From Patescibacteria group bacterium (lineage in GTDB: Bacteria; Patescibacteriota; WWE3; UBA101185; UBA10185), in contig JBAZBO010000001.1 of NCBI GenBank assembly GCA_041671425.1, positions 1 to 32,890 on the forward strand: 32,890 nt of DNA, read 5' to 3'. Shown here piece after piece: positions 6,372 to 32,673 of this stretch; position 1 is the first letter of the stretch, and each line of letters begins with the position of its first letter. The notes below the pieces were generated by a model, which was not told the origin of the DNA, ran no database searches, and worked only from the letters and a program-made list of their open reading frames with translations. The position numbers were made by a program, and so were the translations under genes.

Positions 6372-6376
6372 GTGCA

Positions 6377-6383
6377 AATATAA
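6377..6383 (-). promoter_or_regulatory. -10-like TATATT/TTATAT, 5-6 nt upstream of the xer ATG
   Basis: Minus strand reads TTTTTATATTTGCAC-ATG, with no Shine-Dalgarno. Confidence 0.35.
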
Positions 6384-6389
6384 AAATCA

Positions 6390-6408
6390 ATCCTGGGGCA
6401 TCCTGGGA
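6390..6408. repeat. Tandem direct repeat ATCCTGGGG-c-ATCCTGGGA (period 10 bp)
   Basis: Read directly. Related to the repeat at 4631-4650. Lies where the -35 region of the putative xer promoter would be. Confidence 0.55.
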
Positions 6409-6641
6409 CCCTAGGCTTTAGCTAAGGCAAAAACTGCCCGTTGTGGACATATTCTAACACAAAACGATTCCAAAATGCCGCGGAAATTAAACAAGCACAG
6501 GAATTAAGGATAGGAAGGTAAAAGGGAATAGAGGACAGTGGGTTTTAGATAAATATTAATAATCAATAAATCACAGAATTGGAAGTGCATAAAATTGGAC
6601 ACAGCAATGAGAATAGAGTAGCATGATGTTTTAGATCTTAG

Positions 6642-6669
6642 ACGTCGTATAATGTATGTTTAACGACGT
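6642..6669. other. Candidate dif-like Xer recombination site, ACGTCGTATAA-TGTATG-TTTAACGACGT
   Basis: 11-6-11 architecture with arms 9/11 reverse-complementary. The inner ATAA and central TGTAT resemble E. coli dif (GGTGCGCATAA-TGTATA-TTATGTTAAAT). Lies 271 bp from the xer start. Confidence 0.45.
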
Positions 6670-6849
6670 ATCGTGGGGTTTTAAACCTAAACCCGCATAC
6701 GAGACACATAATGTTTAGGGGAATACACTGGGAAAGGTTGAGCACACAATTATCAATTAATTAAGATATACATTTCTTTATCATTTATTCTCCGTATTTA
6801 TTTTCATGAATTTGCGAACTGCAGGCCTTAGGATCCAAGGCCACAGGAA

Positions 6850-6858
6850 TTATCCACA
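6850..6858 (+). promoter_or_regulatory. Perfect DnaA-box consensus TTATCCACA (single copy)
   Basis: Exact 9-mer read in the long intergenic region. I saw only one additional weak (7/9) match, TGTGGACAT, near 6453. Confidence 0.3.
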
Positions 6859-6876
6859 AAGTGAGTAAATTAAAAG

Positions 6877-6930
6877 TATGACAATCATACTATGACAACT
6901 ATACCCTATAATAATAGTGACAATTATCAC
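6877..6930. repeat. Abutting 14-bp direct repeats TATGACAATCATAC / TATGACAACTATAC, plus a third degenerate copy GTGACAATTATCAC
   Basis: Read directly. Copy 1 sits inside the palindrome GTATGA-caa-TCATAC, and copy 3 is a near-palindrome. A 9-bp inverted repeat TACCCTATA(6902-6910)/TATAGGGTA(6948-6956) brackets copy 3. Confidence 0.6.
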
Positions 6931-6986
6931 CTCAAGCCTATAACTGCTATAGGGTACTTCCCCACTCCGGTGTATGTCTCAAAAAA

Positions 6987-7790: not shown

Positions 7791-8330
7791 TTACTGCCTT
7801 GCTTCGTAGTTGGAAAAGACCTCTGAGACATCTTCCTGAGAAGCAAGCTCATCATGCAAATTCTCAACCTTAACAAGGTCACCATCTTTCAGTGGAATAG
7901 TAAAACTTGGGTTCTCAGGGTCAGCAAATATATATGCTGTGCGTCCACTTGCCCCCATGGACCCACCACTTTTTGTAAATAAATTCCTTATCTCAGATAC
8001 GGTCCTATACTTATTATCCGTGACTGCTCTTACCAAAAAGGCCACACCAGCAGGACCATAGCCCTCATACACTACTTCTTCCATGGTTCTACCATCAGCT
8101 GTAACACCCAAACCTTTATCAATAGCTCTTTGAACATTATCCCTAGGCATACCCGCTTCTTTTGACTTTTCTACAGCCAATCTAAGGGAAGGGTTTGTAT
8201 CTATCTCTCCCCCACCCTCTTTTGCGGCAATTGTTATCGCTCGGCTGATCTTGGAAAATGTCTGGCTCTTTCTGGCATCTGTTATCGCTTTATCCCTTTT
8301 TATCTTCGACCATTTATTATGACCGCTCAT
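7791..8330 (-). CDS. yebC: YebC/PmpR (TACO1) family protein, short form (179 aa)
   Basis: Canonical N-terminus MSGHNKWSKIKRDKA at the ATG at 8330, plus YEGYGPAGVA and DNKYRTVSEIR. The 66-aa N-terminal extension in the ORF track has no homology and runs into the divergent TPR gene. Confidence 0.88.
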   Translation of the reverse strand: MSGHNKWSKIKRDKAITDARKSQTFSKISRAITIAAKEGGGEIDTNPSLRLAVEKSKEAGMPRDNVQRAIDKGLGVTADGRTMEEVVYEGYGPAGVAFLVRAVTDNKYRTVSEIRNLFTKSGGSMGASGRTAYIFADPENPSFTIPLKDGDLVKVENLHDELASQEDVSEVFSNYEARQ

Positions 8331-8337
8331 AAGATTG

Positions 8338-8346
8338 ATAATACCA
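8338..8346 (-). promoter_or_regulatory. Extended -10 TGGTATTAT, 7 nt before the yebC ATG
   Basis: Minus strand reads TGTGGTATTAT-CAATCTT-ATG. The same TGTGGTATTATC string precedes hppA. Confidence 0.45.
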
Positions 8347-8394
8347 CAATAGCGCCGATAAATAACTTCCTTGCAACTAGGATGGAAATTTGAT

Positions 8395-9075
8395 ATGGTC
8401 TTACTCATGCAAAATAACGGCTTATCCCTACAGAAGCAGTCGGTAGATGCAGCTTTGAAAGGAGACTGGAAGAAAGCCATAGATCTCAACCTTTTAATAC
8501 TAGAAAAATTCCCCGATGATATGGACACAAAGGCCAGATTGGGTAAGGCTTACCTACAGGTCAAAGATTTCACCAAAGCCAAGAAACTTTTCAAAGAGAT
8601 ACTAGACAAGGATCCCATCAACGCAATAGCCAGAAAGAACTACGAGCTGGCAAAAGAAAAGAATACTGTTCCAATAAAAACCAGCGCCAATCCTAAAGCC
8701 CTTATAAAAGAGCCAGGGCTTAGTGCTGAGATGTTCCTAGAATCAAAGAAGGTGTTCAAGCATGACCTTATGGCTGGTGAGGAACTCAAGATAAGATCTA
8801 CAAAGAAGAATATAAAAGTCTTTCGAGATAAGATCCAGCTGGGTGAATGCCAAAGCCCAGATATCCTCACGGCGTTAAACGCTGCTAAAGAAGAAAAGGC
8901 TGAGGTAAAGGCTTTCTACGCCTCAAGGAGAGATAAGATCATGAAGATCATAGTCAGGTGCACTAAACCTGTCTTCAGAGCTGAAAAACAGGCAATTAAG
9001 CCATATCTCAAGAAGGGCACTCTAAAAGAGCCCGAACTTGAGATCACTGAACTGGACATTGAAGAAGAGGAATAA
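8395..9075 (+). CDS. TPR-repeat protein, unknown function
   Basis: N-terminal TPR-like helices (AALKGDWKKAIDLNLLILEKFPDDMDTKARLGKAYLQVKDFTKAKKLFKEILDKDP) and an acidic C-terminus. The start is uncertain: ATG at 8395 or at 8407. The 8407 ATG has TGATATGGT 7 nt upstream. Confidence 0.75.
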   Translation: MVLLMQNNGLSLQKQSVDAALKGDWKKAIDLNLLILEKFPDDMDTKARLGKAYLQVKDFTKAKKLFKEILDKDPINAIARKNYELAKEKNTVPIKTSANPKALIKEPGLSAEMFLESKKVFKHDLMAGEELKIRSTKKNIKVFRDKIQLGECQSPDILTALNAAKEEKAEVKAFYASRRDKIMKIIVRCTKPVFRAEKQAIKPYLKKGTLKEPELEITELDIEEEE

Positions 9076-9089
9076 GTATCCCCTACCAT

Positions 9090-9815
9090 CTATCTTAGAT
9101 CGTCATCTTCCAGACTTAGAACAATTGGTTGATCAGTCTTGAGAAGCTCCTTCTTTTGCGTTGGTTCTTCCTTCTTTGGTTCAGGTTTCTTCTCCACCAC
9201 CACTGGTGGATTTGGCTTCTTCACTTCAGGCTTTTTTTCCGCAACCATCGGTTTAGGCTGGGGTTTCTTCTCCACTTTCACAGCCGGGATTGGCGTACGT
9301 GGCATATCAAGAACCACTTTCTTCTCCTCTTCACCCTTGATAATCTTCAAAGCCGCAAAAGGGACTTTTAGATTGTCAGCCGGAATCAAAGCCGTAGCTT
9401 CAACGTTCTGCTGGGCATTATGATACAAAGCAGCAGTATCGGAGATCCTGTAAGACCCACAGTCGGCTAGGATGTACCAGACATCTTCTTTCTTCGAAAG
9501 CACACCACGGATCTCTTTTGGTTCTGACTTTCCTATGTTCTTGAAGAAAGGCTTTCCATCTTCTTCAACCATCTTCATCTTATCGCCAAACATAAGCATG
9601 GACTTTGCGGCATAGTTGGCAGGAACAGGAAATCTCTCACCTGACTCAGACACCATGGATTCACCATCAAAGGTACCTGTTTTGCCTGGTATTTCCTCAA
9701 ACGCCTTCTTTTCCTCCTCCTCTATGGTCCTCATTACGCTCATTGCAATATTAAGATGTTTCTCAAGAGATTTAAGTTCTGACTTAAGTTTGAATAATTC
9801 ACTTTTACTAGACAC
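9090..9815 (-). CDS. Hypothetical protein with N-terminal coiled coil and Lys/Pro/Glu-rich C-terminal tail
   Basis: The long ORF lies immediately downstream of the ATPase gene. GTG at 9815 has AGGAGG 9 nt upstream. It overlaps the upstream gene's 3' end, stop codon included, by 8 nt. The listed TTG at 9884 would overlap that gene by 77 nt. The tail contains EKKP-type repeats. Confidence 0.65.
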   Translation of the reverse strand: MSSKSELFKLKSELKSLEKHLNIAMSVMRTIEEEEKKAFEEIPGKTGTFDGESMVSESGERFPVPANYAAKSMLMFGDKMKMVEEDGKPFFKNIGKSEPKEIRGVLSKKEDVWYILADCGSYRISDTAALYHNAQQNVEATALIPADNLKVPFAALKIIKGEEEKKVVLDMPRTPIPAVKVEKKPQPKPMVAEKKPEVKKPNPPVVVEKKPEPKKEEPTQKKELLKTDQPIVLSLEDDDLR

Positions 9816-12312
9816 TACTATCGACCTCCTTTCCAGACCTGTTTTCCAGGGCAATTGCCATTCCTTTATCGAATCTTGTTTCAAGCCACTTCCCTACCTT
9901 CTCCTCTACGTACGCCCTGTCACTACCATACTTTTGTCTGCTCATCTCAATTACTCTTTGCTTGTTATCACTCTTTGGGACTATACATGTCTCAGGATCC
10001 CAGGGCAACAATATCCTTGCAGAAAAAGGCAGCGAGGTCATCCCATCTATCATTAGTTTTATATACATGTGAAATCTTTCAAGAGATATTATGTCGGTCT
10101 CATCAAAATAAGGGGCAAACTCGTTCGTAAGTGCCCTTGCATCAGGGGCGCCTAGGGAAAACGTAGCAATAGTGCCCACATTACCGAAAACCGCCTTTAG
10201 AAGCTCCTCAGGCAGTTGAGCCGTATACTGGTGGGTCAGATACAACCCAAGTTTATATTTTCTAGACTCAGAAAGGATCGTTTCAAAACTTCCAGTCGCA
10301 AAGTTCTGGAATTCATCAACGTAAAGATAGAAAGGCACTCTTTGTTCGTAAGGTATATTGGCCCTTTGTAAGGCCATGAACTGAATCCTTGATACAAGCA
10401 AGGCACCCAACAGATTTGCGTTGTCGTCCCCTATCTTGCCTTTAGACAGGTTTATGAGCAGTATCTTCTTATTGTTCATGATATCAGCCAGATCTATTGT
10501 AGATTTCTTTTGGCCAAGGATATTCCTGATGGTAGTAGAGGCCAAGAATCTATTAACCTTATTCTGGATAGGAGCTATTGCTTCGGTTACCAGTTTTTGG
10601 TTGCCTTTCATGGCTTTGTACTCAGAATCCCAAAATTTCTGAACCATGGGATCTTTCACAAAGTGGAGTATGTATCTAAGATAGTTATCATCTTCCAAAA
10701 GCCTTGTTATACCCAACATAGTAGTACCGGGTACCTCAAGGAGAGTAAGTAGACAATAGTTCAGCATGTATTCCAATCTTGGACCCCAAGAGTAGTCAAA
10801 CTGCTTTTTTATAGCTGCAACCAAGGCAGAGGCCATAAGGTTCTTCTGGGATACATCATCCATTTCCAAAAGGTTCAACCCCACCGGTCTCTCTGTGTCC
10901 GAAGGATCAACAAGAACCACATCATCCATCCTATTATCAGGTATCCTTTCCAATATCTTCTCTATGGTTTCACCATGCGGATCCAAAACTCCCACCCCAA
11001 AACCTTTCTGGATATCCTGAGTAGCCATATTCTCTAGAAGTGTTGATTTACCTGTGCCAGACTTTCCAATAAGGTACATGTGCCTTAATCTATCATCACC
11101 ATCTTTAAGCCCAAACCTCACCTTCTTGCTCCTATAGATGGTCTCACCAATATAGGTACAGTTATCAACTGGGAGGGTTGATGGTGGCTCTGATTTCTTG
11201 GAATACAACCATGATATGTTTGGCGTACCTAGTTCTGATGAGGGAAAATGGTACAAGGTAGCCATCTCCTCTATTGTCAATACATGGGCCTTATCTGGAT
11301 CAAAAGTTCTGTTCTTGTAATCTTCAAATCCCAGGGGACCTTCTTCAACCACTCTGAAGCTATTAGTATGAGCGGTGTAGAACTGGTTGAATGAGGCAAT
11401 CAAGGACCTTTTGTTAGAGTTTATCCTTTCTGGGGTCTCGGCAGAGGACATGATCCTAATCTGGGCCTTATATCCCATCATGGAAAGCTTGTTCTCAATG
11501 GCTTTAAGCTCAAGATCCTGGGTAGGAGATATATCTACTGGTTTCAAGCTTGGTTTGCTGTAATCGGTCTTTGTCTCTGCATTTGTAAAAAAACCAGTTA
11601 TGATACTAATCATTATTTCCTTAAACTCAGTAAGGATATTGTGGGATAAATCGGTAAGTTCCTTGGACATTCCTGACCTACCAAAGGGATCCTTTCCGGC
11701 TCGTACTGAATCCACATATCCATAACCCTCATCCTGCCAATTATCCGGGCTGGGCATCACCACGAACTGCAGCCAGACACTCTCACCTTCCTGAAGCTCT
11801 GACAAAGAAGATGTCACAGCGGAGAGGGAATCTACTTCAAGCTCCCTAAATGTCTTGATAGGAAAGAATTGCTTTTTGTTGGGAACCAAGGTAACAACAT
11901 CATGACTATCCCTAAAGGGCACCTTGTCAGTGTAGTCCTCAGTCACCCTAATAACGGCTTTTGGATATTGGGCGTATATCTGACTTTCTACAAATTTCAA
12001 AATGTCGTGAGGAACTGCCACGTAAAACCTAATACCTTCAGCGCTGGAAAATGCCATCTCAAATGAGAAATGTTCCTGGTTGGCATAATCCTCTTTCAGA
12101 AGACCGTGAAGTGATGCAAACATGCCCTCTGCACCAAGAGTAGTACCCTGAGCTTCCCCACCCTCCTCTTCATTCTTAGGTACTTGTATCTCCAGCAACT
12201 CAAAATCTGATGTTCTTTTTTGTGATGAGCCTTTCTTGAAAAAACGCGCAAGGAACCTAACGCCAACAAAGGCAAGAAGCGCAAAAGCGAAATAGTAAAA
12301 AACCCCGTTCAT
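9808..12312 (-). CDS. Membrane-anchored VirD4/TraD/TraG-like (FtsK-HerA superfamily) P-loop NTPase
   Basis: N-terminal TM helix (GVFYYFAFALLAFVGVRFLARFF), Walker A YLIGKSGTGKSTLL, Walker B FYLYVDEFQNF, THQYTAQL. The ~400 aa N-terminal region is of unknown fold. ATG at 12312 preferred over TTG at 12327. Confidence 0.8.
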   Translation of the reverse strand: MNGVFYYFAFALLAFVGVRFLARFFKKGSSQKRTSDFELLEIQVPKNEEEGGEAQGTTLGAEGMFASLHGLLKEDYANQEHFSFEMAFSSAEGIRFYVAVPHDILKFVESQIYAQYPKAVIRVTEDYTDKVPFRDSHDVVTLVPNKKQFFPIKTFRELEVDSLSAVTSSLSELQEGESVWLQFVVMPSPDNWQDEGYGYVDSVRAGKDPFGRSGMSKELTDLSHNILTEFKEIMISIITGFFTNAETKTDYSKPSLKPVDISPTQDLELKAIENKLSMMGYKAQIRIMSSAETPERINSNKRSLIASFNQFYTAHTNSFRVVEEGPLGFEDYKNRTFDPDKAHVLTIEEMATLYHFPSSELGTPNISWLYSKKSEPPSTLPVDNCTYIGETIYRSKKVRFGLKDGDDRLRHMYLIGKSGTGKSTLLENMATQDIQKGFGVGVLDPHGETIEKILERIPDNRMDDVVLVDPSDTERPVGLNLLEMDDVSQKNLMASALVAAIKKQFDYSWGPRLEYMLNYCLLTLLEVPGTTMLGITRLLEDDNYLRYILHFVKDPMVQKFWDSEYKAMKGNQKLVTEAIAPIQNKVNRFLASTTIRNILGQKKSTIDLADIMNNKKILLINLSKGKIGDDNANLLGALLVSRIQFMALQRANIPYEQRVPFYLYVDEFQNFATGSFETILSESRKYKLGLYLTHQYTAQLPEELLKAVFGNVGTIATFSLGAPDARALTNEFAPYFDETDIISLERFHMYIKLMIDGMTSLPFSARILLPWDPETCIVPKSDNKQRVIEMSRQKYGSDRAYVEEKVGKWLETRFDKGMAIALENRSGKEVDSSV

Positions 12313-12317
12313 TTTAT

Positions 12318-12355
12318 AAAACAACAAAAACCCCCGCCCTAATTTGGAGCGGGGG
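12318..12355 (-). terminator. Rho-independent terminator-like hairpin after the LCP gene
   Basis: Minus strand reads CCCCCGC-(11 nt loop)-GCGGGGG followed by TTTTTGTTGTTTT. The T-tract ends 5 nt before the ATG of the next gene. Confidence 0.6.
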
Positions 12356-15162: not shown

Positions 15163-16173
15163 TTACTTCTTCTTTTTATTGCTACAGCTGGAACAAGTTG
15201 TAGCCTCAGGATAGATCTCCAAACGCCCTTCTTCTATGGGGCCACCACAAACCTCGCAAATCCCATACTTTCCTATCTTCATCCTGGCTAAAGCTTTCCT
15301 AACCTGCATAATAACCGGAGCCAAAGAAGCCTTTTTTATATCAGTGAGCTCCTTGGGAGTATCTTCCAGCACTGCATCATCCATAGCTTCTGAATTACCC
15401 TCACTTCTTCCATCTTGAAGATACGGATCCTCTTCGATAAGTTTTTGCTGTCTCGCTTCCAACTGCTTGTTCTTGGCCAACAGATTTCCTTTGAAGATCT
15501 TGAGTATGTTATCTAATGATTTCTCTTTTTTATCCATATGCTTGTTCATCCTAATCAGAAAGTTGAGCAAGCTTATTGTAAACAAGCACGCATAAAATAT
15601 CAAACTGACTCTGCCAGGAAAAACCAACATCCCAATGATTATATTTGTAAGGGCAAAGATCGGAAAAACAAGACCAGAGATGGACTTTCTCCTCAAAAAA
15701 GACAGACCGGCGAATGCAAAAAGGTAGCCCGAAAACAGGAACAAAAACGCGAATTGCTTGTAGTACGCTATTAAACTAAGAGATATCAAAGACAAACCAA
15801 GCAAAAAAGACAGTGAAAAGATATCGAGTATCCTGAAAAGCGACCACTTCCATTTCCTGGAAAGAATTACCACAGGAGTAATAAATCCTATCAAAGCGCC
15901 TAACGAACTGAATCCCGGAGTCCAAAACCTTATGACATTATAGTAAGTTCCATAAAATCCCAACCTGTTGTCAAAAGCATAGAATACCCTGGAGAAAACC
16001 AAACTGGAGAAAAGTGATACTACAAAAAGGTCGAACAATTTCTCTTCGCCAAATCCATCCTTCCTGCCCTCCTGCCAAAGAACGAACAAGGACATAAAAA
16101 AAGCCAGAGTGAGAAAGATCCCTATCGTATGGATCTTATATCCGCTAAAGACAAAGAAAGTAGGCAAATTCAT
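15163..16173 (-). CDS. Lgt-like polytopic membrane domain fused to a C-terminal DksA/TraR C4 zinc finger
   Basis: The N-terminal ~210 aa follows the Lgt helix pattern (IHTIGIFLTLAFF..., IRFWTPGFSSLGALIGF). The GRxGNFxNxE signature is not visible. The C-terminus RKALARMKIGKYGICEVCGGPIEEGRLEIYPEATTCSSC is an exact CxxC-x17-CxxC DksA/TraR motif. Confidence 0.7.
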   Translation of the reverse strand: MNLPTFFVFSGYKIHTIGIFLTLAFFMSLFVLWQEGRKDGFGEEKLFDLFVVSLFSSLVFSRVFYAFDNRLGFYGTYYNVIRFWTPGFSSLGALIGFITPVVILSRKWKWSLFRILDIFSLSFLLGLSLISLSLIAYYKQFAFLFLFSGYLFAFAGLSFLRRKSISGLVFPIFALTNIIIGMLVFPGRVSLIFYACLFTISLLNFLIRMNKHMDKKEKSLDNILKIFKGNLLAKNKQLEARQQKLIEEDPYLQDGRSEGNSEAMDDAVLEDTPKELTDIKKASLAPVIMQVRKALARMKIGKYGICEVCGGPIEEGRLEIYPEATTCSSCSNKKKK

Positions 16174-16176
16174 AGA

Positions 16177-16731
16177 TTAGGCTTTTGACAGATACTCACC
16201 TGTCCTGGTATCCACTTTTATGGTATCCCCTATCTTGATGAACGGGGGGACCCTTACCACAGTACCATTGGGAAGCTTAGCTTCCTTCAAGACATTGGTA
16301 ACCGTATTCCCCCTGTAACCAGGCTCTGTATAGGCTACTTCGAACACTAGGCTATTGGGAAGCTCTACCGAGACAGGTTCATCCTCAAAATACATCACCT
16401 GAACCACAATACCTTCCAATAGAAAGGCCGCTTGCTCCCCTATCACGTCCTCTGGGATAGTAAACTGTGCGTAGGTCTCAGGATCCATAAATACATACCC
16501 TATTTGGTCGTTATAGAGATATTGAGCGTTCCTTTTCACCACGTCAGCATATTCCATCCTTGTGGAAGCCATGTAGCTCTTTTCTAGAACAGAGTTATTC
16601 AAAAGATTTCTTACCTTGACTCTTACGGTGGCACTTCCTCTGGAAACTTTCACATGGAAATACTTCAACACCAAAAAGGGGGTGTCATTTTCCTTAAATA
16701 TTGCTCCTGTCTTTAGGTCTGTAGCTATCAT
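16177..16731 (-). CDS. efp: Elongation factor P
   Basis: MIATDLKTGAIFKENDTPFLVLKYFHVKVSRGSATVRVKVRNL with a three-domain length of 184 aa. AAGGA Shine-Dalgarno upstream of the ATG at 16731. The longer listed ORF overlaps the tRNA. Confidence 0.93.
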   Translation of the reverse strand: MIATDLKTGAIFKENDTPFLVLKYFHVKVSRGSATVRVKVRNLLNNSVLEKSYMASTRMEYADVVKRNAQYLYNDQIGYVFMDPETYAQFTIPEDVIGEQAAFLLEGIVVQVMYFEDEPVSVELPNSLVFEVAYTEPGYRGNTVTNVLKEAKLPNGTVVRVPPFIKIGDTIKVDTRTGEYLSKA

Positions 16732-16743
16732 ATTTTTCCTTGC

Positions 16744-16831
16744 TGGTGCCACGAGTGGGAGTTGAACCCACACGAGGGTTGCCCCTCATTGGTTTTTGAG
16801 ACCAACGCGTATGCCATTCCGCCACCGTGGC
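16744..16831 (-). tRNA. tRNA-Leu (anticodon CAA), type II with long variable arm, CCA encoded
   Basis: Hand-folded cloverleaf. Acceptor GCCACGG/TCGTGGC. 3-bp D stem with a GG-containing loop. Anticodon stem TTGGT/ACCAA with loop CTCAAAA. Variable arm GAGGG-GCAA-CCCTC. T arm GTGGG-TTCAACT-CCCAC. Discriminator A plus CCA. Confidence 0.9.
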
Positions 16832-16861: not shown

Positions 16862-18199
16862 CTATAAACTTTCTCTTCTTTGCTCAAGCTCAAAGAATTG
16901 GGTCCTGTTCTGCTTGAAGAACAAAGGTATCTCACCGGTAGGTCCGTTCCTATGCTTTGCCAACATCAATATGTAGTTCTCCCTATCCTCTTCGTCAGGT
17001 CTGTACAAAAACATCACAATATCTGCATCTTGTTCTATAGATCCCGAATCCCTAAGATCAGAAAGCTGAGGCCTCTTATCTCCACCACGCTGTTCTACCG
17101 CTCTGGACAGCTGTGAAACGGCTAAAACGGGTACTTTTAGTTCCCTGGCTAAATTCTTCAAGGCCTGGGAGATCTCAGAGACTTCCTGCACCCTGCTTTC
17201 CAGATTCCTTCCCCTTACCAGCTGAAGGTAATCAACCACTATCAGGTCTATCTCGTGTTCCAGTTGGAGTCTTCTGGCCTTGGTTCTCATTTCCATCACA
17301 CTAATACCAGGGGTATCATCAATAAAGATTGGCGCTTCAGCCAGCTCACCTGCGGCAATACCATATCTCTCAAAGTCGTCCTGCTCCAGGTTTCCTGTGG
17401 TGATCCTCCAGTTATCTATATCTCCTTGGGCAGATATCATCCTGTCTACTATGGATTCCCTACCCATTTCCAACGAAAACATCGCCACTGCCTTGTTGTG
17501 AACTGTTGCCGCGTGCTGGGCAATGTTGATAGCCAAAGATGATTTACCTACAGAAGGCCTTGCCGCAAGTATGACCAAGTTTTCCCTTTGAAGACCGGAA
17601 AGCATGCTGTCCAAGGTTTTCAGACCTGTAGGCACTCCTCTTAAAGCACCTCTGGTCTTGCTTAGCTCATCCAGCCTCTCAAATGTGACTTCCAAAGTCT
17701 CTTTTACAGGAACAAAGTCCTGCTGCACCCTATCTTGGGATACCGAGTACAACATTTGCTCCGACTGGTCCAAAAGCTCTTCAATATTACCTTCTTCAAA
17801 TACCAGCTCCCCTATCCTAGCGGCTGTGTGCAGAAGTTTTCTTTTTACCGCGGCATCTCTGATTATCCTGGCGTAAAACTCTACATTGGCAGCAGTGGGT
17901 ACTGAGAAAACCAGTTCTGACAGATATGCTGTTCCTTCTGAGGAATCAGTCTTGCCCATGGTTCTTAGCTCATCAGGCAAGGTAATAAGATCAGCCGGTT
18001 CCCTTCTTTCATAAAGATTTACTATTGCTTGGAATATATCTACATGCAGAGATTTATAAAAATGCTCGGGCCTCAGGAATTCCACCACTTTCACAATGGC
18101 GTCGGGGTCGATCATCACCGCACCTAGCACAGATTTCTCTGCATCAAGGTCGTGGGGCGGTATTCCCACCTGAGTGGTCTTAATTCGTTCTTCGGCCAT
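16862..18199 (-). CDS. dnaB: Replicative DNA helicase DnaB
   Basis: PPHDLDAEKSVLGA N-terminus, Walker A ARPSVGKSSLA, Walker B LIVVDYLQL, SQLSRAVEQR, DADIVMFLYR. Confidence 0.95.
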   Translation of the reverse strand: MAEERIKTTQVGIPPHDLDAEKSVLGAVMIDPDAIVKVVEFLRPEHFYKSLHVDIFQAIVNLYERREPADLITLPDELRTMGKTDSSEGTAYLSELVFSVPTAANVEFYARIIRDAAVKRKLLHTAARIGELVFEEGNIEELLDQSEQMLYSVSQDRVQQDFVPVKETLEVTFERLDELSKTRGALRGVPTGLKTLDSMLSGLQRENLVILAARPSVGKSSLAINIAQHAATVHNKAVAMFSLEMGRESIVDRMISAQGDIDNWRITTGNLEQDDFERYGIAAGELAEAPIFIDDTPGISVMEMRTKARRLQLEHEIDLIVVDYLQLVRGRNLESRVQEVSEISQALKNLARELKVPVLAVSQLSRAVEQRGGDKRPQLSDLRDSGSIEQDADIVMFLYRPDEEDRENYILMLAKHRNGPTGEIPLFFKQNRTQFFELEQRRESL

Positions 18200-27928: not shown

Positions 27929-29014
27929 TTACACACTGAATCTGAATTCTACTACATCACCATCATTCATAAAATACTCCTTGCCTTCTGTCCTTATCAA
28001 ACCCAGTTCCTTGGCACCTCTCCAGCTGCCCGCCTTGACCAGATCATCATAGGAAACTACCTCAGCACATATAAAACCCCTTTCAAAATCAGTGTGGATG
28101 GTTCCAGCTGCTTGAGGTGCTTTATCACCTATTCTAATAGTCCAAGCTCGGACTTCCTTAGGACCGGCAGTGAAGAAGGTTTGCAAATTGAGTAATTTAT
28201 ATCCTCTTTTTATCACTTTATCCAGTCCGCTGTAGTGTATTCCCAGCTCTTCCATATATGCCTGAGCATCAGTATCAGAAAGTGAGGCCAACTCTGACTC
28301 AAGTTGTGCACATAGGTATACAACATCTGTACCCATTTCCTTATTTTCTGGCTTGGAGACAAACTCCTCCGACACGTTATAAACCTGAATGAAAGGCTTG
28401 GAAGTAAGCAGATTCAGATCTTTTGCATGAATATGTTCCTTCTCCGTGAGCTGAACAGAAGATGCAAGCTCTCCCCTGTCCAAGGCAACCAGGATCTTTT
28501 CACATACGGCTAGTTTTTCAAAACTTAGCTTGTCTCCACTTTTGGAATTTCTTTGTTCCGTCTCGATCTTTTTGTTCAAGACCTGCAAGTCAGCTAGGAT
28601 CAATTCCATGTTGATCACTTTGATATCATTCTCAGGGTCTGTAGAGCCCGCTCGGGCTACATTTGGATCTTCAAATGCTCTGACAACATGAATTATGGCG
28701 TCCACCTCTCTGATGTGGCTTAGAAACTTATTACCTAAGCCTTCTCCCTCAGAAGCGCCCTTGACAAGCCCTGCAATATCAACAAAATTCACTACCGCGG
28801 GCATTATCCTCTTGGGTGGGGTCTTGTATTCTTTTTCTACTATCTCATAAAGCTTTTGCAGCCTCTCATCCGGAACATCCACCACGCCTACATTTGGCTC
28901 AATAGTAGCAAAGGGGTAGTTGGCTGCCAAAGCAGCCTGCTTTTTGAGAAGAGCGTTAAAAAGGGTGGACTTACCTACATTTGGAAGTCCTATGATCCCG
29001 ATAGAAAGTCCCAT
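27929..29014 (-). CDS. ychF: Ribosome-binding ATPase YchF (Obg-like)
   Basis: [39 protein letters not shown]-terminal TGS-like [14 protein letters not shown]. Confidence 0.95.
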
Positions 29015-29021
29015 GGTGGGT

Positions 29022-29027
29022 ATTCTA
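29022..29027 (-). promoter_or_regulatory. -10-like TAGAAT, 7 nt before the ychF ATG
   Basis: Minus strand reads CAACGTAGAAT-ACCCACC-ATG, no Shine-Dalgarno. Confidence 0.4.
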
Positions 29028-29059
29028 CGTTGATTTGGAAATAAAATAAACTGTCTACT

Positions 29060-29121
29060 AAAAGGAGCCCCAGCGTTTTCGTTTCCACACAGTGGTTTCG
29101 ACGCTGGGGTGCGATAGCTCC
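29060..29121 (-). terminator. Compound GC-rich stem-loop with T-tract downstream of the orphan ORF
   Basis: Minus strand reads GGAGC-tatcgcac-CCCAGCGT-(24 nt)-ACGCTGGG-GCTCC-TTTT. The 3' arm is a contiguous 13 nt. Confidence 0.55.
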
Positions 29122-29146
29122 TTTGTACAAAAACAGACCAAACGGA

Positions 29147-30532
29147 TTAGGAGGTCACGCTACCATTTTCTGCACGCACAACGCGCATAGTAGCCATAAT
29201 CTCCGCTTCCCGACGCTTACTGACATCTTCCTCTTTCTGTCTAACAGAGCTTCGCTGTTGATATTCCAGAATGGAATCCTGCAGTACTACAGACAACTCC
29301 GGGTAGCCATCCTTCAAGATATCAAGGAGCATTTCTGCCCCACAACATGTATCCTGATTGTACACACCGCGGTGGCTCTCAGGGAGTCTTGCCATCGCAA
29401 CAGCGAAATCGACCAGGATTTCAGCCTCCCCCGCACTCTGTATCAGGGAGAGGATTGTGGGCACATGCCATGGCATGATGACATGGCTTCTTCCTTCCAT
29501 ATCATGGGGCATGTACCTCACGAATGCTGCTATTTGCTGGGAGAACAGCTTGGCGCTGTACTTCAAGCCTTCTCCAAAAAGTTGACTTTGTACAAAGTCA
29601 GCATAACGCCAGAGCGCTGCTTCGTGTTCCATCCTCGGAACTGACTGCCCAGAAGCTTCACGCTCAATGATCGAGCACATGCGCTCATGAGCAACCCACT
29701 TCCATTTCTCAGGTGCATCAGAAAGCAACAGATATCTGAGCGGGTTGTACCCAGACGCCTCGTCCATAGACCACCAAGAGGTCGGATCATTCAGCGAGAA
29801 CAAGCTGAACAACCTCTCGGCCACGTCATCATGCAAGAATTGTAGAAGATCCACAACGAGATAGTTGTAGCCCTTCAAAAGGCTATAGTTCTTCTCAGGA
29901 TCCCTTCTTCCCAGGACGTGCTTGTAGAAAATCTCCACCAACTCTGCGAGAAAAGCGTAAAGATCCTCGGTCAAAAATGTGTGTTTGACACCCAGGTCCC
30001 CACTGAACCCAGTGTGCCCACTATACTGACCGAGAATGCGGTCTCCACCCCAGTAGAAGGGGATAGAACGTCTCTCCGGAGTCAGCAGAATAAGTAGGGC
30101 TCTCGCCTTAAAAGCTGCGTGGATTTCCGGATCCTCAATCAGCCCTTTCAAGTCCCTGAACTCACGATCCTTGAAGTTCACCCATTCTTTCCAAGCCCTC
30201 TCTGTCTCTGAGCAAAAGAACGAGCTCTTCCACCTCCGAACAAGCCGCCTCACTTCTCTGGTTACCATTTCCATACCTCCCATACTACTCATCCTGACTT
30301 CATCATCCAGGGTATACCGCCTCGCCCTTCCTGCCCGCCAACCCGCCTTCTTTCGAATAAGGCTGGAGAGTAGGACCATCTCACCGGGATCGGGGTCAGA
30401 ACCACCTTCCCACACATCTTCTGCGAGGGAAAATGTTATCGAACCCTCAACACCCTGTGCGGTTGTAACTGCATAAGGTCCATGTTCACCATTTAAGACC
30501 CTCTGCACAACCGCCACAATTCCTCCCGACAT
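29147..30532 (-). CDS. Orphan protein (461 aa) in a compositionally atypical segment, no family recognised
   Basis: Uninterrupted long ORF. ATG at 30532 is preceded by GAGGAGG with a 5-nt spacer; the listed TTG at 30553 is less likely. 12 Trp, Arg/His-rich, and uses CGG Arg codons. Small beta-rich N-terminal segment followed by an apparently helical body. Confidence 0.75.
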   Translation of the reverse strand: MSGGIVAVVQRVLNGEHGPYAVTTAQGVEGSITFSLAEDVWEGGSDPDPGEMVLLSSLIRKKAGWRAGRARRYTLDDEVRMSSMGGMEMVTREVRRLVRRWKSSFFCSETERAWKEWVNFKDREFRDLKGLIEDPEIHAAFKARALLILLTPERRSIPFYWGGDRILGQYSGHTGFSGDLGVKHTFLTEDLYAFLAELVEIFYKHVLGRRDPEKNYSLLKGYNYLVVDLLQFLHDDVAERLFSLFSLNDPTSWWSMDEASGYNPLRYLLLSDAPEKWKWVAHERMCSIIEREASGQSVPRMEHEAALWRYADFVQSQLFGEGLKYSAKLFSQQIAAFVRYMPHDMEGRSHVIMPWHVPTILSLIQSAGEAEILVDFAVAMARLPESHRGVYNQDTCCGAEMLLDILKDGYPELSVVLQDSILEYQQRSSVRQKEEDVSKRREAEIMATMRVVRAENGSVTS

Positions 30533-30657
30533 CTGCACCTCCTCTATTTTCAATGTACATCAAGCTATCGCTGACGCACATATTACAACTTATTCTGGAA
30601 GGAATCAATATTATAGGTCTTGTAGAATACGGGCTTTACATTTTGAAGCTCAAGGAG

Positions 30658-32622
30658 CTAAATAAGAAGCGGAGCCACCAAAAGCGCACTCATACCAACT
30701 AGCTTCATAAAGATAAGGAGTGAAGGTCCTGCTACATCCTTCATGGGATCCCCTACTGTGTCCCCGATAACCGCAGCTTCATGCTGTGGGGTGCCCTTCA
30801 AACCTTTGGTTGATGCGATAAGCTTCTTGGTATTATCAAAGGCTGTACCGGTGTTGTTGAAGAAAGGTCCTAACAAAGCAGCCGACACTACCGACCCTAT
30901 CAAAAGAGGACCTAAAGCCTCTGCTCCAAACGCAAATCCCACTAAGATTGGTACAAGGATTGAAATAAGCCCCGGTAAGATCATGCCTTTGAGGGCATTC
31001 TTGGTCGTAATGTCTATGCACTGGGCATAATCAGCCTTAGCTTTACCCTGCAAAAGACCCTTGATCTCCCTAAACTGCCTTCTGATCTCATCTACCATCA
31101 AGAAAGCTCCTTTAGCAGTAGCCTCCATAGTCAAAGAGGCAATAAGGTAAGGTAAGGAAACACCCAACAACAGGAAACCGAGCGAAGTGGGATCAGTGAC
31201 ATTAAGGGTATCTATACCTGTGATAGTGAAAAAAGTTGAGAAAATAACAAAGGCTGTTATCGTACCTGAGGACATTGCGTAGGCCTTGGTAATGGCTTTC
31301 ATGGTATTCCCTACTGAATCCAGAGAGGAAAGACCATCTACTAACTCCTCTGATGCGCCTGACATCTCGACAATTCCTGAGGCATTATCTATCACGGGAC
31401 CAAAGGCATCAGCAGTCATGATGTAGGCTATTAGAAGATCTGTGCCTATATTCACCCCGATAACTGCCAATATTGAGCCACCGGATAACGTATAGGCAAG
31501 GATCGTTGAGGCAACTATCGCTATTACAGGAACTATCGGACTTCTCAAGCCATATCCCAACCCGACAATAATGTTTATGGCGGGTCCCCTCTTAGCAGCC
31601 TCCGCCATATTGGCAACGGGCTTTCCTTCCATTCCAGCAAAATATCTGGTCGAAAAAGCAGCAACCAGAGTCACTACTACACCCAAAAGTACCCCGATCC
31701 AGACGCTCAGGTCAGGCAACAGCATCTTGGTCAGAATAAAGGAACTGGACAATCCCAAGGCAGAAGCAATCCAAAGACCATAATTGAATGACGCATTAGG
31801 ACTTTTTGTCTCACTTATCTTCCTGGTCAAGGCTATTGCTATCAAAGAGGCCATGATACCGCAACATTGCAAAAGGATGGGATAGAAAACAACATTCGGA
31901 CCGTACTTGAAAAGCAAAGCCGATGCCACAAGGGTACCGGTCACTATATCATCACTAAAAGTCTGAAAGAGATCTGAGCCTCTACCAGCACAATCACCAA
32001 CGTTATCTCCCACCAAATCCGCTATCACCGCAGGGTTTCTAGGGTCATCTTCAGGCAAACCTTCTTCTACCTTCCCAGCGAGATCGGCTCCAACATCTGC
32101 AGACTTGGTGTAAATCCCCCCTCCAATCTGTGCAAAAAGAGCTGCTAAACTAGCTCCAAATCCAAATCCCACCAAGACCTCATAATCTTTGAAGACAAGG
32201 TAAAGGATGCTTAGAACAAAAAGGGAAAGCCCGGTGATAGCAAGCCCTGTAATGGAGCCACTAAGGACTGCAAGTCTGAAGGCACGACCTGTTGACTTTG
32301 AGGCCGAATTTGTCACCCTGGAGTTGGCGAAAGTTGCGGCGAACATACCTATAAAAGAGCCAAGTAAAGATACAAATACCCCAAGGACAGAGACAAAGGC
32401 CACTCTCCAATCAAAAAGAAATAACAGTGCTAAAAAAAGGAAAGGAGTTACCAGAGAAATAGATTTAAGCTGTCTGAGAAGATATGACTTCGCACCAACA
32501 GCAATATACCCTGCCACTTCTCCCATCTTACCGCCAGGTCTGGGTTCTTTCCTTATCTTTAAAAGAAAACTAAGTGCAAAAAATATAACTGTTAGACCTG
32601 TCAATAATGATATGTAGAACAT
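30658..32622 (-). CDS. hppA: Membrane-bound proton-translocating pyrophosphatase (K+-independent type by motif)
   Basis: GGIYTKSADVGADLAGKVE, DDPRNPAVIADLVGDNVGDCAGRGSDLF, DSVGNTMKAITKAYAMSSG, IGDTVGDPMKD. ATG at 32622 is preferred because TGGTATTAT sits 8 nt upstream of it; the listed GTG at 32640 would lie upstream of that element. Confidence 0.92.
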   Translation of the reverse strand: MFYISLLTGLTVIFFALSFLLKIRKEPRPGGKMGEVAGYIAVGAKSYLLRQLKSISLVTPFLFLALLFLFDWRVAFVSVLGVFVSLLGSFIGMFAATFANSRVTNSASKSTGRAFRLAVLSGSITGLAITGLSLFVLSILYLVFKDYEVLVGFGFGASLAALFAQIGGGIYTKSADVGADLAGKVEEGLPEDDPRNPAVIADLVGDNVGDCAGRGSDLFQTFSDDIVTGTLVASALLFKYGPNVVFYPILLQCCGIMASLIAIALTRKISETKSPNASFNYGLWIASALGLSSSFILTKMLLPDLSVWIGVLLGVVVTLVAAFSTRYFAGMEGKPVANMAEAAKRGPAINIIVGLGYGLRSPIVPVIAIVASTILAYTLSGGSILAVIGVNIGTDLLIAYIMTADAFGPVIDNASGIVEMSGASEELVDGLSSLDSVGNTMKAITKAYAMSSGTITAFVIFSTFFTITGIDTLNVTDPTSLGFLLLGVSLPYLIASLTMEATAKGAFLMVDEIRRQFREIKGLLQGKAKADYAQCIDITTKNALKGMILPGLISILVPILVGFAFGAEALGPLLIGSVVSAALLGPFFNNTGTAFDNTKKLIASTKGLKGTPQHEAAVIGDTVGDPMKDVAGPSLLIFMKLVGMSALLVAPLLI

Positions 32623-32630
32623 AAGTACAG

Positions 32631-32639
32631 ATAATACCA
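32631..32639 (-). promoter_or_regulatory. Extended -10 TGGTATTAT, 8 nt before the hppA ATG
   Basis: Minus strand reads GATGTGGTATTAT-CTGTACTT-ATG. Shares TGTGGTATTATC with the yebC promoter. Confidence 0.4.
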
Positions 32640-32673
32640 CATCAAAATAACTCTTTAAATAACAAGGGAAAAC

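What the first reader, a model, noticed from the sequence alone, without database searches (positions are those of the whole stretch)
29015..30657. Single-gene compositional island: higher-GC, Trp/Arg-rich 461-aa orphan between ychF and hppA
My hand counts of six 60-nt lines inside 29147-30532 give 42-58% G+C (mean about 51%). Four lines in the flanking ychF and hppA genes give 30-53% (mean about 40%). The protein has 12 Trp (about 2.6%; GyrA has 2 in 855 aa), many Arg/His/Cys, and CGG Arg codons, where neighbours mostly use AGA/AGG. It has its own strong GAGGAGG Shine-Dalgarno, a ~100-nt upstream spacer with TATAAT-like boxes, and a dedicated GC-rich terminator. It interrupts two housekeeping genes. 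I recognise no family: a ~75-aa beta-rich N-terminal segment (GPYAVTTAQGVEGSITFSL...GWRAGRARR), a basic linker, then a long apparently helical body. This is the clearest candidate here for a horizontally acquired gene of unknown function, possibly a single-gene defence or addiction-type cargo.
Basis: partly seen in the sequence, partly recalled or inferred. Interest (0 to 1): 0.7.

Follow-up and report, generated by a model that had tools for sequence, protein, structure and literature searches.

The report
GC-rich OB-fold plus helical fusion gene
The GC-rich gene between ychF and hppA is real and encodes a fusion of two unannotated protein families of uncultured ultra-small (CPR) bacteria, a cold-shock-like barrel and a helical domain of unknown fold. 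Its relatives are GC-richer than their neighbours in every genome examined, so the composition alone does not show a recent foreign origin.

Summary
The 461-aa gene (29147-30532, minus strand) is the strongest compositional outlier of 30 genes. Its GC is 0.510 against 0.429±0.023 (z +3.6), its GC3 is the highest, and 17 of 37 Arg codons are CGN.

It is not an orphan. An exhaustive search finds 506 clusters of relatives, all unannotated and without any Pfam, NCBIfam, PHROG, PADLOC or PDB sequence match.

A confident AlphaFold model (pLDDT 92) shows two modules.
- Residues 5-72 form a five-stranded barrel that superposes on CspA/CspE (TM 0.70-0.75).
- Residues 75-456 form an all-helical body with no structural relative (TM ≤0.3).

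Each module mostly occurs alone. The barrel is an ~85-aa protein in many CPR lineages. The body is a ~360-aa protein that sometimes carries a membrane anchor.

The gene is solitary and sits at a different place in each genome, including a relative that shares local synteny with the window. However, ychF lies directly downstream in two distant genomes.

In all 8 loci tested, the family member has 0.05-0.23 more synonymous GC3 than its neighbours predict. GC-richness is therefore a family trait.

A defence or addiction role has no support. The most likely function is binding of single-stranded nucleic acid, but this is inferred.

The parts
29147..30532 (-). Coding sequence of the 461-aa two-module protein (ATG at 30532, TAA at 29147-29149).
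   Evidence: ORF and translation. An identical protein occurs in a second assembly. There are 506 homologous clusters. The AlphaFold model has pLDDT 92.4 and pTM 0.82.
30317..30520 (-). N-terminal module, residues 5-72: a five-stranded beta-barrel with a cold-shock/S1-like OB fold. It carries the conserved HGPYAV, GSITFSL, VW, PEPGE and KRAGWRA motifs.
   Evidence: Strands E5-15, E18-25, E32-35, E52-61 and E64-72. Foldseek matches: CspA 2l15 TMt 0.71, CspE 3i2z 0.70-0.73, phage CspD 0.75, probability 1.0. Conserved columns. There are 226 relatives, mostly stand-alone.
29165..30310 (-). C-terminal module, residues 75-456: an all-alpha body of about 16 helices ending in a 46-residue helix. K278 is invariant. 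W114, W117, R144, Y262-P264 (SGYNP), E292, E304, Y310 and Q333 are nearly invariant.
   Evidence: Secondary structure. Conservation over 80 sequences. Only weak generic solenoid matches, TM 0.2-0.3 and E 3e-3 or worse. No Pfam or PDB sequence match.
30538..30544 (-). Shine-Dalgarno sequence GAGGAGG, 5 nt upstream of the ATG.
   Evidence: Read directly from the sequence.
30533..30657 (-). 125-nt spacer between the hppA stop and the gene. It contains an exact TATAAT at 30610-30615 as a candidate -10 box, with no convincing -35.
   Evidence: Sequence. The promoter scan reports no -35/-10 pair here.
29060..29124 (-). Terminator-like GC-rich hairpin (AAAGGAGC...CCCCAGCG...CGCUGGGGCUCCUUUU) between the gene and ychF.
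   Evidence: RNA fold of 29040-29150: -32.9 kcal/mol, z -2.65 against shuffles.
27929..29014 (-). Context: ychF, directly downstream on the same strand. The same order (family gene, then ychF) is seen in the distant locus L013.
   Evidence: Pfam PF06071 and PF01926. L013 gene order. The two YchF proteins are 45% identical. The gap in L013 is 36 bp with no hairpin.
30658..32640 (-). Context: hppA (membrane H+-pyrophosphatase), directly upstream on the same strand.
   Evidence: Pfam PF03030, E 2.9e-195.

Best explanation
This is a genuine protein-coding gene of a CPR (Microgenomates-type) bacterium. Its product fuses two unannotated families.

1. A small cold-shock-like OB-fold protein. It mostly occurs alone, at about 85 aa, in many CPR lineages.
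2. An all-helical protein of about 360 aa. It also mostly occurs alone, and some members carry an N-terminal membrane anchor instead of the barrel.

The gene is an accessory, solitary gene that occupies a different chromosomal site in each genome, so it has been gained or relocated. Its GC-richness is a property of the whole family, not a mark of recent arrival.

Proposed mechanism (inferred, not shown): the OB head binds single-stranded nucleic acid, most likely RNA. It uses exposed aromatic residues (Y20, F34, W41, W65) and the basic KKxGWRAxRAR hairpin. This tethers the helical module to its target. The helical module is the working part, with a conserved polar and aromatic set (R144, D249, SGYNP, K278, E292, E304, Y310, Q333). 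In relatives the same module acts free or at the membrane. The repeated placement just upstream of translation factors (ychF twice, efp once) hints at a translation- or RNA-linked role.
For: Shown:
- Real gene. The ORF has a Shine-Dalgarno sequence, an identical copy occurs in a second assembly, 506 homologous clusters exist, and the model is confident at pLDDT 92.4.
- Two modules. The barrel superposes on CspA, CspE and CspD with TM 0.70-0.75. The body has no structural match above TM 0.3.
- Modularity. Of 154 retrieved relatives, 21 have both modules, 126 have the body only (five of these with an N-terminal hydrophobic, TM-like segment) and 7 have the barrel only, including one tandem pair. 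A profile of the barrel finds 226 proteins. The best 120 are nearly all 78-118 aa, and those with names come almost all from CPR lineages: Zambryskibacteria, Nomurabacteria, Doudnabacteria, Vogelbacteria, Wildermuthbacteria and Parcubacteria.
- Host taxon. The two close two-domain relatives that carry names are from Woesebacteria and Microgenomates DG_75. The window shares gene blocks with the DG_75 contig.
- Variable position. The flanks are hppA|ychF (window), purM|ychF (L013), nusA-infB|dnaJK (L015-17), dnaB|efp (L019), pilus operon|RRM (L010) and a stretch of small ORFs without Pfam hits that also holds a methylase and a helicase (L021-23).
- Family-wide GC3 excess. The excess is +0.05 to +0.23 (z 2.6-10.8). 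The family gene ranks first or second in all 8 loci. Observed against host-expected GC3 gives r = 0.90. Third-position A and T are depleted in 8 of 8 loci.

Inferred:
- Nucleic-acid binding, from the fold and residue pattern.
- A link to translation, from a translation factor lying directly downstream on the same strand in 3 loci (window, L013, L019).
Against: - No sequence similarity to true cold-shock domains. Pfam gives nothing even at E 10 and hhalign against CspA gives probability 0.3%. RNA binding therefore rests on fold analogy alone.
- By my count from the translation, the barrel (residues 1-80) is net acidic outside its basic hairpin.
- The helical body has no recognisable catalytic or binding motif.
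- CPR genomes are dense in translation genes, so the neighbourhood signal is weak.
- Serial transfer from GC-richer donors is not excluded as the source of the GC3 excess.
- The window organism's taxon is inferred, not measured.
Confidence: 0.5

Rival explanations
1. First reader's reading. The gene is a recently acquired foreign single-gene cargo with a defence, abortive-infection or addiction role. Its GC-rich composition still reflects the donor.
For: - It is the strongest GC and codon outlier in the window.
- It is solitary, with its own Shine-Dalgarno sequence and terminator-like hairpin.
- Its location is not syntenic in a related genome.
- In L021-23 a family member lies among small ORFs without Pfam hits, 7-9 kb from a DNA methylase and 3 kb from a PIF1/UvrD-like helicase.
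- In L002 a HEPN/nucleotidyltransferase pair lies about 1.4 kb downstream, two genes away.
- Other GC-rich outlier genes exist in these AT-rich genomes, for example L010 14259-14837.
Against: - No PADLOC, PHROG, phage, plasmid or viral-contig match.
- No toxin, nuclease or NTPase domain, and no partner ORF.
- No flanking repeats and no adjacent tRNA or integrase.
- The nearest homologue among about 15 billion proteins is 39-40% identical, so no donor is in sight.
- The same positive GC3 offset occurs in 8 of 8 hosts whose expected GC3 spans 0.24-0.58, and it tracks the host (r 0.90). Independent recent transfers would not all deviate in one direction.
Confidence: 0.15
2. The gene is a vertically inherited, lineage-specific factor tied functionally to YchF or translation. 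Its odd composition results from an intrinsic pressure on the gene, such as selection at synonymous sites or GC-biased gene conversion. Its varying position reflects the generally poor synteny of CPR genomes, not transfer.
For: - The order family gene then ychF, on the same strand, recurs in two genomes whose YchF proteins are only 45% identical. In L013 the gap is 36 bp with no terminator. By my estimate this is unlikely by chance, about 2e-4 for 2 of 9 contexts in genomes of about 900 genes.
- efp lies directly downstream in L019.
- Gene GC3 tracks host GC3 (r 0.90), as expected for long residence.
- The family protein is 34% identical between the window and L019, against 43% for EFP and 56% for DnaB. 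This fits a fast-evolving vertical gene.
- Recombining bacterial genes are reported to have raised GC3 (Lassalle et al. 2015, PMC4450053; title and abstract seen).
Against: - The distribution is patchy. There are about 500 clusters among 1.84 billion representatives, far fewer than for a universal CPR gene.
- The gene lies at different sites in two genomes that otherwise share local synteny.
- In the window, a terminator-like hairpin separates it from ychF.
- No mechanism for a gene-specific GC pressure has been shown.
Confidence: 0.25
3. The feature is an artefact: either a chimeric assembly joining a fragment of a GC-richer organism between ychF and hppA, or a spurious ORF.
For: The abrupt GC step is confined to one gene.
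Against: - A second assembly (Logan SRR18595301 contig L003) spans both junctions with 0 mismatches in 2994 bases.
- The ORF has hundreds of homologues and a confident fold.
- Homologues in other genomes show the same one-gene GC step.
Confidence: 0.02

Closest known systems
Bacterial cold-shock proteins (CspA/CspE; cold-shock domain, Pfam PF00313) and S1-like OB folds
   Same: Both are ~70-residue five-stranded antiparallel barrels. Foldseek gives TM 0.70-0.75 and probability 1.0 to CspA 2l15, CspE 3i2z and a phage CspD. Aromatic residues sit on strands 2 and 3 and basic residues lie nearby. Like Csps, the domain mostly exists as a free small protein.
   Different: There is no detectable sequence relationship. 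The RNP1 and RNP2 motifs are absent. The domain has its own signature (HGPYAV, GSITFSL, VW, PEPGE, KRAGWRA, PSDEQ tail). Here it is fused to a 380-residue helical body. Named members come almost all from CPR lineages.
Alpha-solenoid scaffolds (PUF, TOG/HEAT, armadillo, TPR)
   Same: All are all-alpha and built of stacked helical hairpins. These are the top Foldseek matches for the body: SPIRAL2 TOG, Puf4, designed ARM and PP2A-A.
   Different: The matches are weak (TM 0.2-0.3, rmsd 12-17 A, E 3e-3 or worse). No repeat HMM fires in any of 80 members. Helices are irregular in length. Conservation sits in inter-helix loops (LND, SGYNP, PR..E), not in a repeat register.
Compositionally atypical 'ORFan' islands taken as horizontal transfers
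   Same: It is a one-gene step in GC, GC3 and codon usage, a solitary gene between housekeeping genes, and its position is not conserved.
   Different: It is GC-richer than its host, whereas by general knowledge mobile DNA is usually AT-richer (not checked here). It has no mobility gene, adjacent tRNA or flanking repeats. The deviation recurs with the same sign in every host examined, which a single transfer does not explain.
Single-gene anti-phage or abortive-infection proteins (sensor plus effector in one chain)
   Same: It is a solitary accessory gene. A variable N-terminal module (OB barrel, TM helix or none) sits on a conserved C-terminal module.
   Different: There is no PADLOC match. 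No known effector domain is present. Most contexts are housekeeping operons, not defence islands.

Membership tests
Cold-shock domain (PF00313) | Significant match to the CSD sequence profile | tested here: not met
   No Pfam family at E up to 10 for the whole protein, or up to 1 for the isolated domain and stand-alone relatives. hhalign of the domain profile against E. coli CspA gives probability 0.3%. The PDB profile search finds no Csp.
Cold-shock domain (PF00313) | Five-stranded antiparallel OB barrel of about 70 residues | tested here: met
   The AlphaFold model has five strands in residues 5-72 with pLDDT of roughly 83-97. Foldseek TM is 0.70-0.75 to CspA, CspE and CspD. This rests on a predicted structure, not a solved one.
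Cold-shock domain (PF00313) | RNP1 (K/N-G-F/Y-G-F-I/V) and RNP2 (V-F-V-H-F) motifs | tested here: not met
   The conserved motifs are HGPYAV and GSITFSL. Each has one aromatic at an analogous strand position, but the motifs themselves are absent.
Cold-shock domain (PF00313) | Binds single-stranded RNA or DNA | not testable with these tools
   Needs EMSA or fluorescence titration with the purified domain.
HEAT/ARM/PUF/TPR alpha-solenoid repeats | Repeat-profile matches and a regular repeat register | tested here: not met
   No repeat family matched in 80 members at E 0.01 or better, apart from a single marginal MIT hit.
HEAT/ARM/PUF/TPR alpha-solenoid repeats | Structural superposition on a solved solenoid (TM of about 0.5 or more) | tested here: not met
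   The best matches have TM 0.20-0.33 and rmsd 12-17 A.
Known anti-phage defence systems (PADLOC-DB) | Match to a defence-protein model | tested here: not met
   0 families at E up to 10.
Known anti-phage defence systems (PADLOC-DB) | Recurrent location in defence islands | tested here: inconclusive
   In two context groups defence-type genes lie nearby but not adjacent: a HEPN/NTase pair about 1.4 kb downstream in L002, and a methylase and helicase 3-9 kb away in L021-23. The other contexts are housekeeping or unannotated neighbourhoods. The sample is small.
Toxin-antitoxin or addiction module | Two small adjacent co-directional genes, or a fused toxin domain | tested here: not met
   No partner ORF lies in the 125-nt and 132-nt spacers. 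No conserved neighbour appears across loci. No toxin domain is present.
Horizontally acquired genomic island | Composition and codon usage atypical for the host | tested here: met
   GC z +3.6, top GC3, and codon chi-square 143 on 41 df. The feature is shared by all family members examined, which weakens its diagnostic value.
Horizontally acquired genomic island | Mobility hallmarks: flanking direct repeats, adjacent tRNA, integrase or transposase | tested here: not met
   No flanking repeat pair. The only tRNA is at 16744-16831. The only recombinase is at 5367-6377, about 23 kb away.
Horizontally acquired genomic island | Empty site (ychF directly next to hppA) in close relatives | tested here: inconclusive
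   No close relative of the window genome was recovered. The metagenome scan with YchF gave one weak hit. Indirect evidence: relative L019 carries its copy at another site.

The most novel reading that the evidence does not exclude
The two modules are new protein families: a cold-shock-like OB protein found almost only in CPR lineages, and a helical domain with a fold not yet seen in the PDB. The helical family also carries an intrinsic, host-independent excess of G/C at synonymous sites and avoids A/U-ending codons for Lys, Asn, Ile, Phe, Gln and Leu in every host. Two causes are conceivable. Either the gene is a hotspot of recombination with GC-biased repair, or its mRNA is selected to escape an AU-directed activity, possibly that of its own product. 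Either would be an unusual, family-level coupling between a protein's function and its gene's composition.
Probability: 0.2. Interest if true: 0.7.

Novelty: new variant of a known kind. Interest (0 to 1): 0.45.

Why it matters
CPR bacteria make up a large share of bacterial diversity, and much of their proteome has no annotation.

This gene links two such unannotated families in one chain. That is a fusion-based (Rosetta-stone) hint that the widespread ~85-aa cold-shock-like protein and the ~360-aa helical protein work together.

It also gives both families a structural handle for the first time: an OB barrel that probably binds RNA or ssDNA, and a confidently predicted helical fold with no solved relative.

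The case carries a methodological warning. A sharp one-gene GC and codon island would normally be called recent horizontal transfer. Here the same deviation, in the same direction, accompanies the family in every host examined. Composition-based island calls can therefore mistake a family trait for an event.

If the synonymous GC excess proves intrinsic, it becomes a tractable case for testing gene-specific biased gene conversion or selection on codons in bacteria.

Tried and rejected
Searches that found nothing:
- Pfam, NCBIfam, PHROGs and PADLOC scans of the protein, of 80 relatives and of stand-alone barrels. No family matched, only chance-level hits.
- PDB sequence searches with the full-family and barrel profiles.
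- hhalign of the barrel profile against CspA: no relationship.
- Foldseek of the first, poorer model (6-sequence alignment, N-terminus unmodelled). It gave only generic solenoid hits and was superseded by the 80-sequence model.
- Searches for a phage or plasmid origin, all negative. These were tblastn against INPHARED phages and PLSDB plasmids, IMG/VR scans with body motifs and with a degenerate KKRAGWRA pattern (chance matches only).
- Insertion scars: no flanking direct or inverted repeat pair.
- Structured RNAs: Rfam finds only the tRNA-Leu.

Attempts that failed to deliver:
- Recovering close relatives of the host to inspect the ychF|hppA junction. The metagenome scan with YchF returned one irrelevant locus. 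The genome-collection scan, run with the family alignment A1, returned one distant MAG.

Ideas tested and rejected:
- The GC3 excess is confined to the helical body. Body exceeds barrel in only 6 of 9 genes.
- Body-only members have a separate barrel gene next door. None was found in L006, L013 or L021-23.
- A conserved small upstream ORF exists. The 133-aa ORF in L015 and the 113-aa ORF in L019 look unrelated by eye.
- Amino-acid composition alone explains the GC3. The excess persists after conditioning on the amino-acid sequence and the neighbours' codon usage.
Full report
**1. The observation**

The region 29015-30657 holds one gene on the minus strand. The ATG is at 30532, a GAGGAGG lies 5 nt upstream, the stop is at 29147-29149, and the product is 461 aa. 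The gene lies between hppA (30658-32640; PF03030, E 3e-195) and ychF (27929-29014; PF06071 and PF01926).

I recomputed composition for 30 genes in the window.
- The gene has GC 0.510. The others have mean 0.429, sd 0.023 and maximum 0.465, so z = +3.6.
- Its GC3 of 0.552 is the highest.
- Trp is 2.6%, Arg 8.0% and Lys 3.9%.
- 17 of 37 Arg codons are CGN. Every other gene has 0-4, except the recombinase at 5367-6377.
- Its synonymous-codon chi-square against the rest (143 on 41 df) is the largest in the window.
- In the sliding profile, the only 600-nt windows at GC of 0.49 or more are inside this gene.

A hairpin at 29060-29124 ends in UUUU. The 111-nt segment folds at -32.9 kcal/mol (z -2.65), which makes it a plausible terminator. 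An exact TATAAT is present at 30610-30615, but it has no convincing -35.

A separately assembled Logan contig (L003) matches window 28359-31352 with no mismatch and crosses both junctions. A chimeric join is therefore unlikely.

**2. Not an orphan**

The word-indexed search found only five relatives, at 33-40% identity. The exhaustive HMMER scan of 1.84 billion representatives found 506 clusters at E 1e-3 or better, 208 at 1e-10 or better and 35 at 1e-30 or better. All are metagenomic, and the sources call them 'hypothetical' or give no name.

Two close two-domain relatives carry names: Candidatus Woesebacteria RBG_16_36_11 (OGM09850.1) and Microgenomates bacterium DG_75 (KPJ70777.1).

No curated library recognises the family. 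This covers Pfam (whole protein, 80 relatives, isolated domains), NCBIfam, PHROGs, PADLOC and PDB sequences.

**3. Architecture**

With a 6-sequence alignment, AlphaFold left the N-terminus unmodelled. With 80 sequences the model reached pLDDT 92.4 and pTM 0.82.

Residues 5-72 form five strands. Foldseek aligns them to CspA (2l15, TM 0.71), CspE (3i2z, 0.70-0.73), a phage CspD (0.75), the DBC1 S1-like domain, and the OB domains of Lys- and Asp-tRNA synthetases. The module is therefore a cold-shock/S1-like OB barrel by predicted fold. There is no sequence relationship: hhalign against CspA gives probability 0.3% and no CSD profile matches.

Residues 75-456 are all-helical, ending in a 46-residue helix. 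The best structural matches are generic solenoids (TOG, PUF, ARM, PP2A-A) at TM 0.2-0.3 and E 3e-3 or worse. No solved structure resembles it.

Across 80 members, K278 is invariant. W114, W117, R144, P152, Y262/P264 (SGYNP loop), E292, E304, Y310 and Q333 are at least 90% conserved. This looks more like a defined site than a repeat register.

**4. Both modules live mostly on their own**

Among 154 retrieved relatives, the split is as follows.
- 21 have both modules.
- 126 have only the body (median 363 aa). Ten of these carry a different N-terminal extension, and in five of them it contains a hydrophobic, TM-like segment.
- 7 have only the barrel. One of these is a tandem pair and one is fused to another unknown region.

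A profile of the barrel finds 226 proteins. The best 120 are almost all 78-118 aa and are 39-57% identical to the window's N-terminus. Those with names come almost all from CPR lineages: Zambryskibacteria, Nomurabacteria, Doudnabacteria, Vogelbacteria, Wildermuthbacteria, Parcubacteria and Minisyncoccia.

The window protein is thus a fusion of two separate unannotated families. By fusion (Rosetta-stone) logic, this suggests that they cooperate where they are separate.

**5. Genomic context**

The gene is solitary everywhere, and no neighbour is conserved.
- Window: hppA | gene | ychF.
- L013: purM | gene | ychF.
- Woesebacteria (L015-17): nusA-infB | gene | dnaJ-dnaK-grpE.
- Microgenomates DG_75 (L019/20): dnaB | gene | efp.
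- L010-12: pilus operon | gene | RRM protein.
- L021-23: a stretch of small ORFs without Pfam hits, which also holds a methylase and a helicase.
- L002: a HEPN/nucleotidyltransferase pair lies about 1.4 kb downstream.
- L006: unannotated neighbours.

The DG_75 contig shares two gene blocks with the window: S41 protease-HtrA-RF, and DnaB-EFP-LGT-DksA. DnaB is 56% identical and EFP 43%. Its family gene sits between DnaB and EFP, where the window has only tRNA-Leu. This is direct evidence that the position is not conserved between related genomes.

One adjacency does recur. ychF lies directly downstream on the same strand in the window and in L013. Their YchF proteins are only 45% identical, and the L013 gap is 36 bp with no hairpin. 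In L019, efp is the co-directional downstream gene. By my estimate, two ychF adjacencies in about nine contexts is unlikely by chance (order 1e-4). The sample is small and CPR genomes are rich in translation genes.

No mobility hallmarks flank the window gene. The family is absent from phage, plasmid and viral-contig collections.

**6. The composition is a family trait**

In every contig examined, the family member is GC-richer than the rest of the contig by 3 to 14 points.

For 8 loci with several genes I predicted each member's GC3 from its own amino-acid sequence and its neighbours' codon usage.

| Locus | Observed minus expected GC3 |
|---|---|
| window | +0.082 |
| L010 | +0.075 |
| L013 | +0.180 |
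| L001 | +0.216 |
| L002 | +0.053 |
| L015 | +0.068 |
| L019 | +0.100 |
| L021 | +0.231 |

The z-scores run from 2.6 to 10.8, and the member ranks first or second for GC3 in every locus.

Host-expected GC3 spans 0.24-0.58. Observed values track it (r = 0.90) with a mean offset of +0.126.

Third-position A and T are depleted in 8 of 8 loci. The shift to G/C-ending codons is seen in 8 of 8 loci for Asn, Gln, Ile, Leu, Lys and Phe. It is not confined to one domain.

A single recent transfer into the window genome cannot explain a same-sign deviation in eight hosts. The nearest relative is only 39-40% identical, so no recent donor is visible. Two options remain.
- Repeated acquisition from consistently GC-richer donors. 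This is unusual, since by general knowledge mobile DNA tends to be AT-richer than its host.
- A gene-specific pressure. One candidate is GC-biased gene conversion in a frequently recombining gene (compare Lassalle et al. 2015, PMC4450053). Another is selection against A/U-rich codons.

I could not discriminate between these.

**7. Most likely function**

Shown:
- The gene is real.
- Its product is a two-module fusion of an OB barrel and a helical body.
- It is accessory and positionally unstable.
- Its family is compositionally offset.

Inferred:
- The barrel binds single-stranded nucleic acid, probably RNA. This rests on conserved aromatics on strands 2, 3 and 5 and the KKxGWRAxRAR hairpin.
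- The barrel brings the helical module to its target.
- The helical module, with its conserved polar and aromatic cluster, is the functional core. In relatives it works free or at the membrane.
- A translation- or RNA-linked role is hinted at by ychF and efp lying downstream.

Confidence is about 0.5 for the whole picture and about 0.3 for the RNA-binding mechanism.

**8. Rivals**

- Recent foreign defence or addiction cargo (0.15). It fits the outlier status and the variable position. It has no positive defence evidence and is undercut by the family-wide offset.
- A vertically inherited, YchF-linked lineage factor with intrinsic GC pressure (0.25). It fits the ychF recurrence and the tracking of host GC. 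It conflicts with the patchy distribution and the differing sites in syntenic relatives.
- Assembly artefact (0.02). This is refuted by the second assembly and the homologues.

**9. Novelty and verdict**

- The barrel is a new sequence family of a known fold.
- The body has no known relative.
- The function is unknown.
- The compositional behaviour is odd and unexplained.

I rate this a new variant of a known kind: an OB-fold nucleic-acid-binding protein with an unrecognised partner domain. Interest is moderate, at 0.45. The finding is real and better defined than before, but there is no demonstrated mechanism, and CPR genomes contain many such unannotated families.

Noticed in passing
window 5367-6377 (-) and 6378-6986: A tyrosine recombinase (PF00589, E 3e-42, with an N-terminal SAM-like domain) is the second codon-usage outlier in the window (15/26 Arg codons CGN; chi-square 123 on 41 df). 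It is followed by a 600-nt AT-rich stretch (GC about 0.37) with no ORF longer than 35 aa. It could be Xer-type housekeeping or a remnant of a mobile element. It lies 23 kb from the finding.
   Followed up: partly
one search hits (P0172, P0228, P0241, P0271 and others); not in the window as a separate gene: The N-terminal barrel of the finding belongs to a family of stand-alone ~80-100-aa 'hypothetical proteins' found in many CPR lineages. Some clusters are seen on 10-59 contigs. It has no Pfam model and may be a cold-shock-like protein largely specific to CPR lineages.
   Followed up: partly
L019/L020 6808-9411 compared with window 16862-18199: DnaB of the Microgenomates DG_75 contig carries an intein with a LAGLIDADG endonuclease (867 aa). 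The window's DnaB (445 aa, 56% identical in the extein) has none.
   Followed up: no
window 15163-16173 (-): A single ORF combines the N-terminal half of prolipoprotein diacylglyceryl transferase (LGT, profile positions 2-125 of 240) with a C-terminal DksA/TraR zinc finger. In L019 the two are separate but overlapping genes. This may be a fusion, a frameshift or a miscalled ORF.
   Followed up: no
window 1502-2056 (+) and 30658-32640 (-): The window encodes both a soluble inorganic pyrophosphatase (PF00719) and a membrane H+-pyrophosphatase (PF03030).
   Followed up: no
window 9090-9884 (-) and 9808-12327 (-): A 264-aa protein with 15% Lys and no Pfam match overlaps the end of an 839-aa HerA/TrwB-like ATPase (DUF87, type IV coupling-protein-like).
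   Followed up: no
L010 14259-14837 (-); L002 2929-3228 (+): Other single genes in these AT-rich contigs are much GC-richer than their neighbours. One is a 192-aa protein with GC 0.49 and GC3 0.54 in a 0.33 contig. The other is a HATPase_c fragment with GC3 0.60. One-gene GC-rich islands may be common in these genomes.
   Followed up: no
window 16744-16831 (-) and 16177-16773 (-): tRNA-Leu(CAA) lies between dnaB and efp and overlaps the mechanically called GTG start of the efp ORF. The true efp start is probably about 17 codons downstream, since the alignment to L019 EFP begins at residue 18.
   Followed up: partly
window 7791-8528 (-): The YebC/TACO1 homologue matches its Pfam N-terminal domain only from residue 71, and only positions 1-54 of the 160-position second/third-domain profile. 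The start may be miscalled or the protein may be atypical.
   Followed up: no
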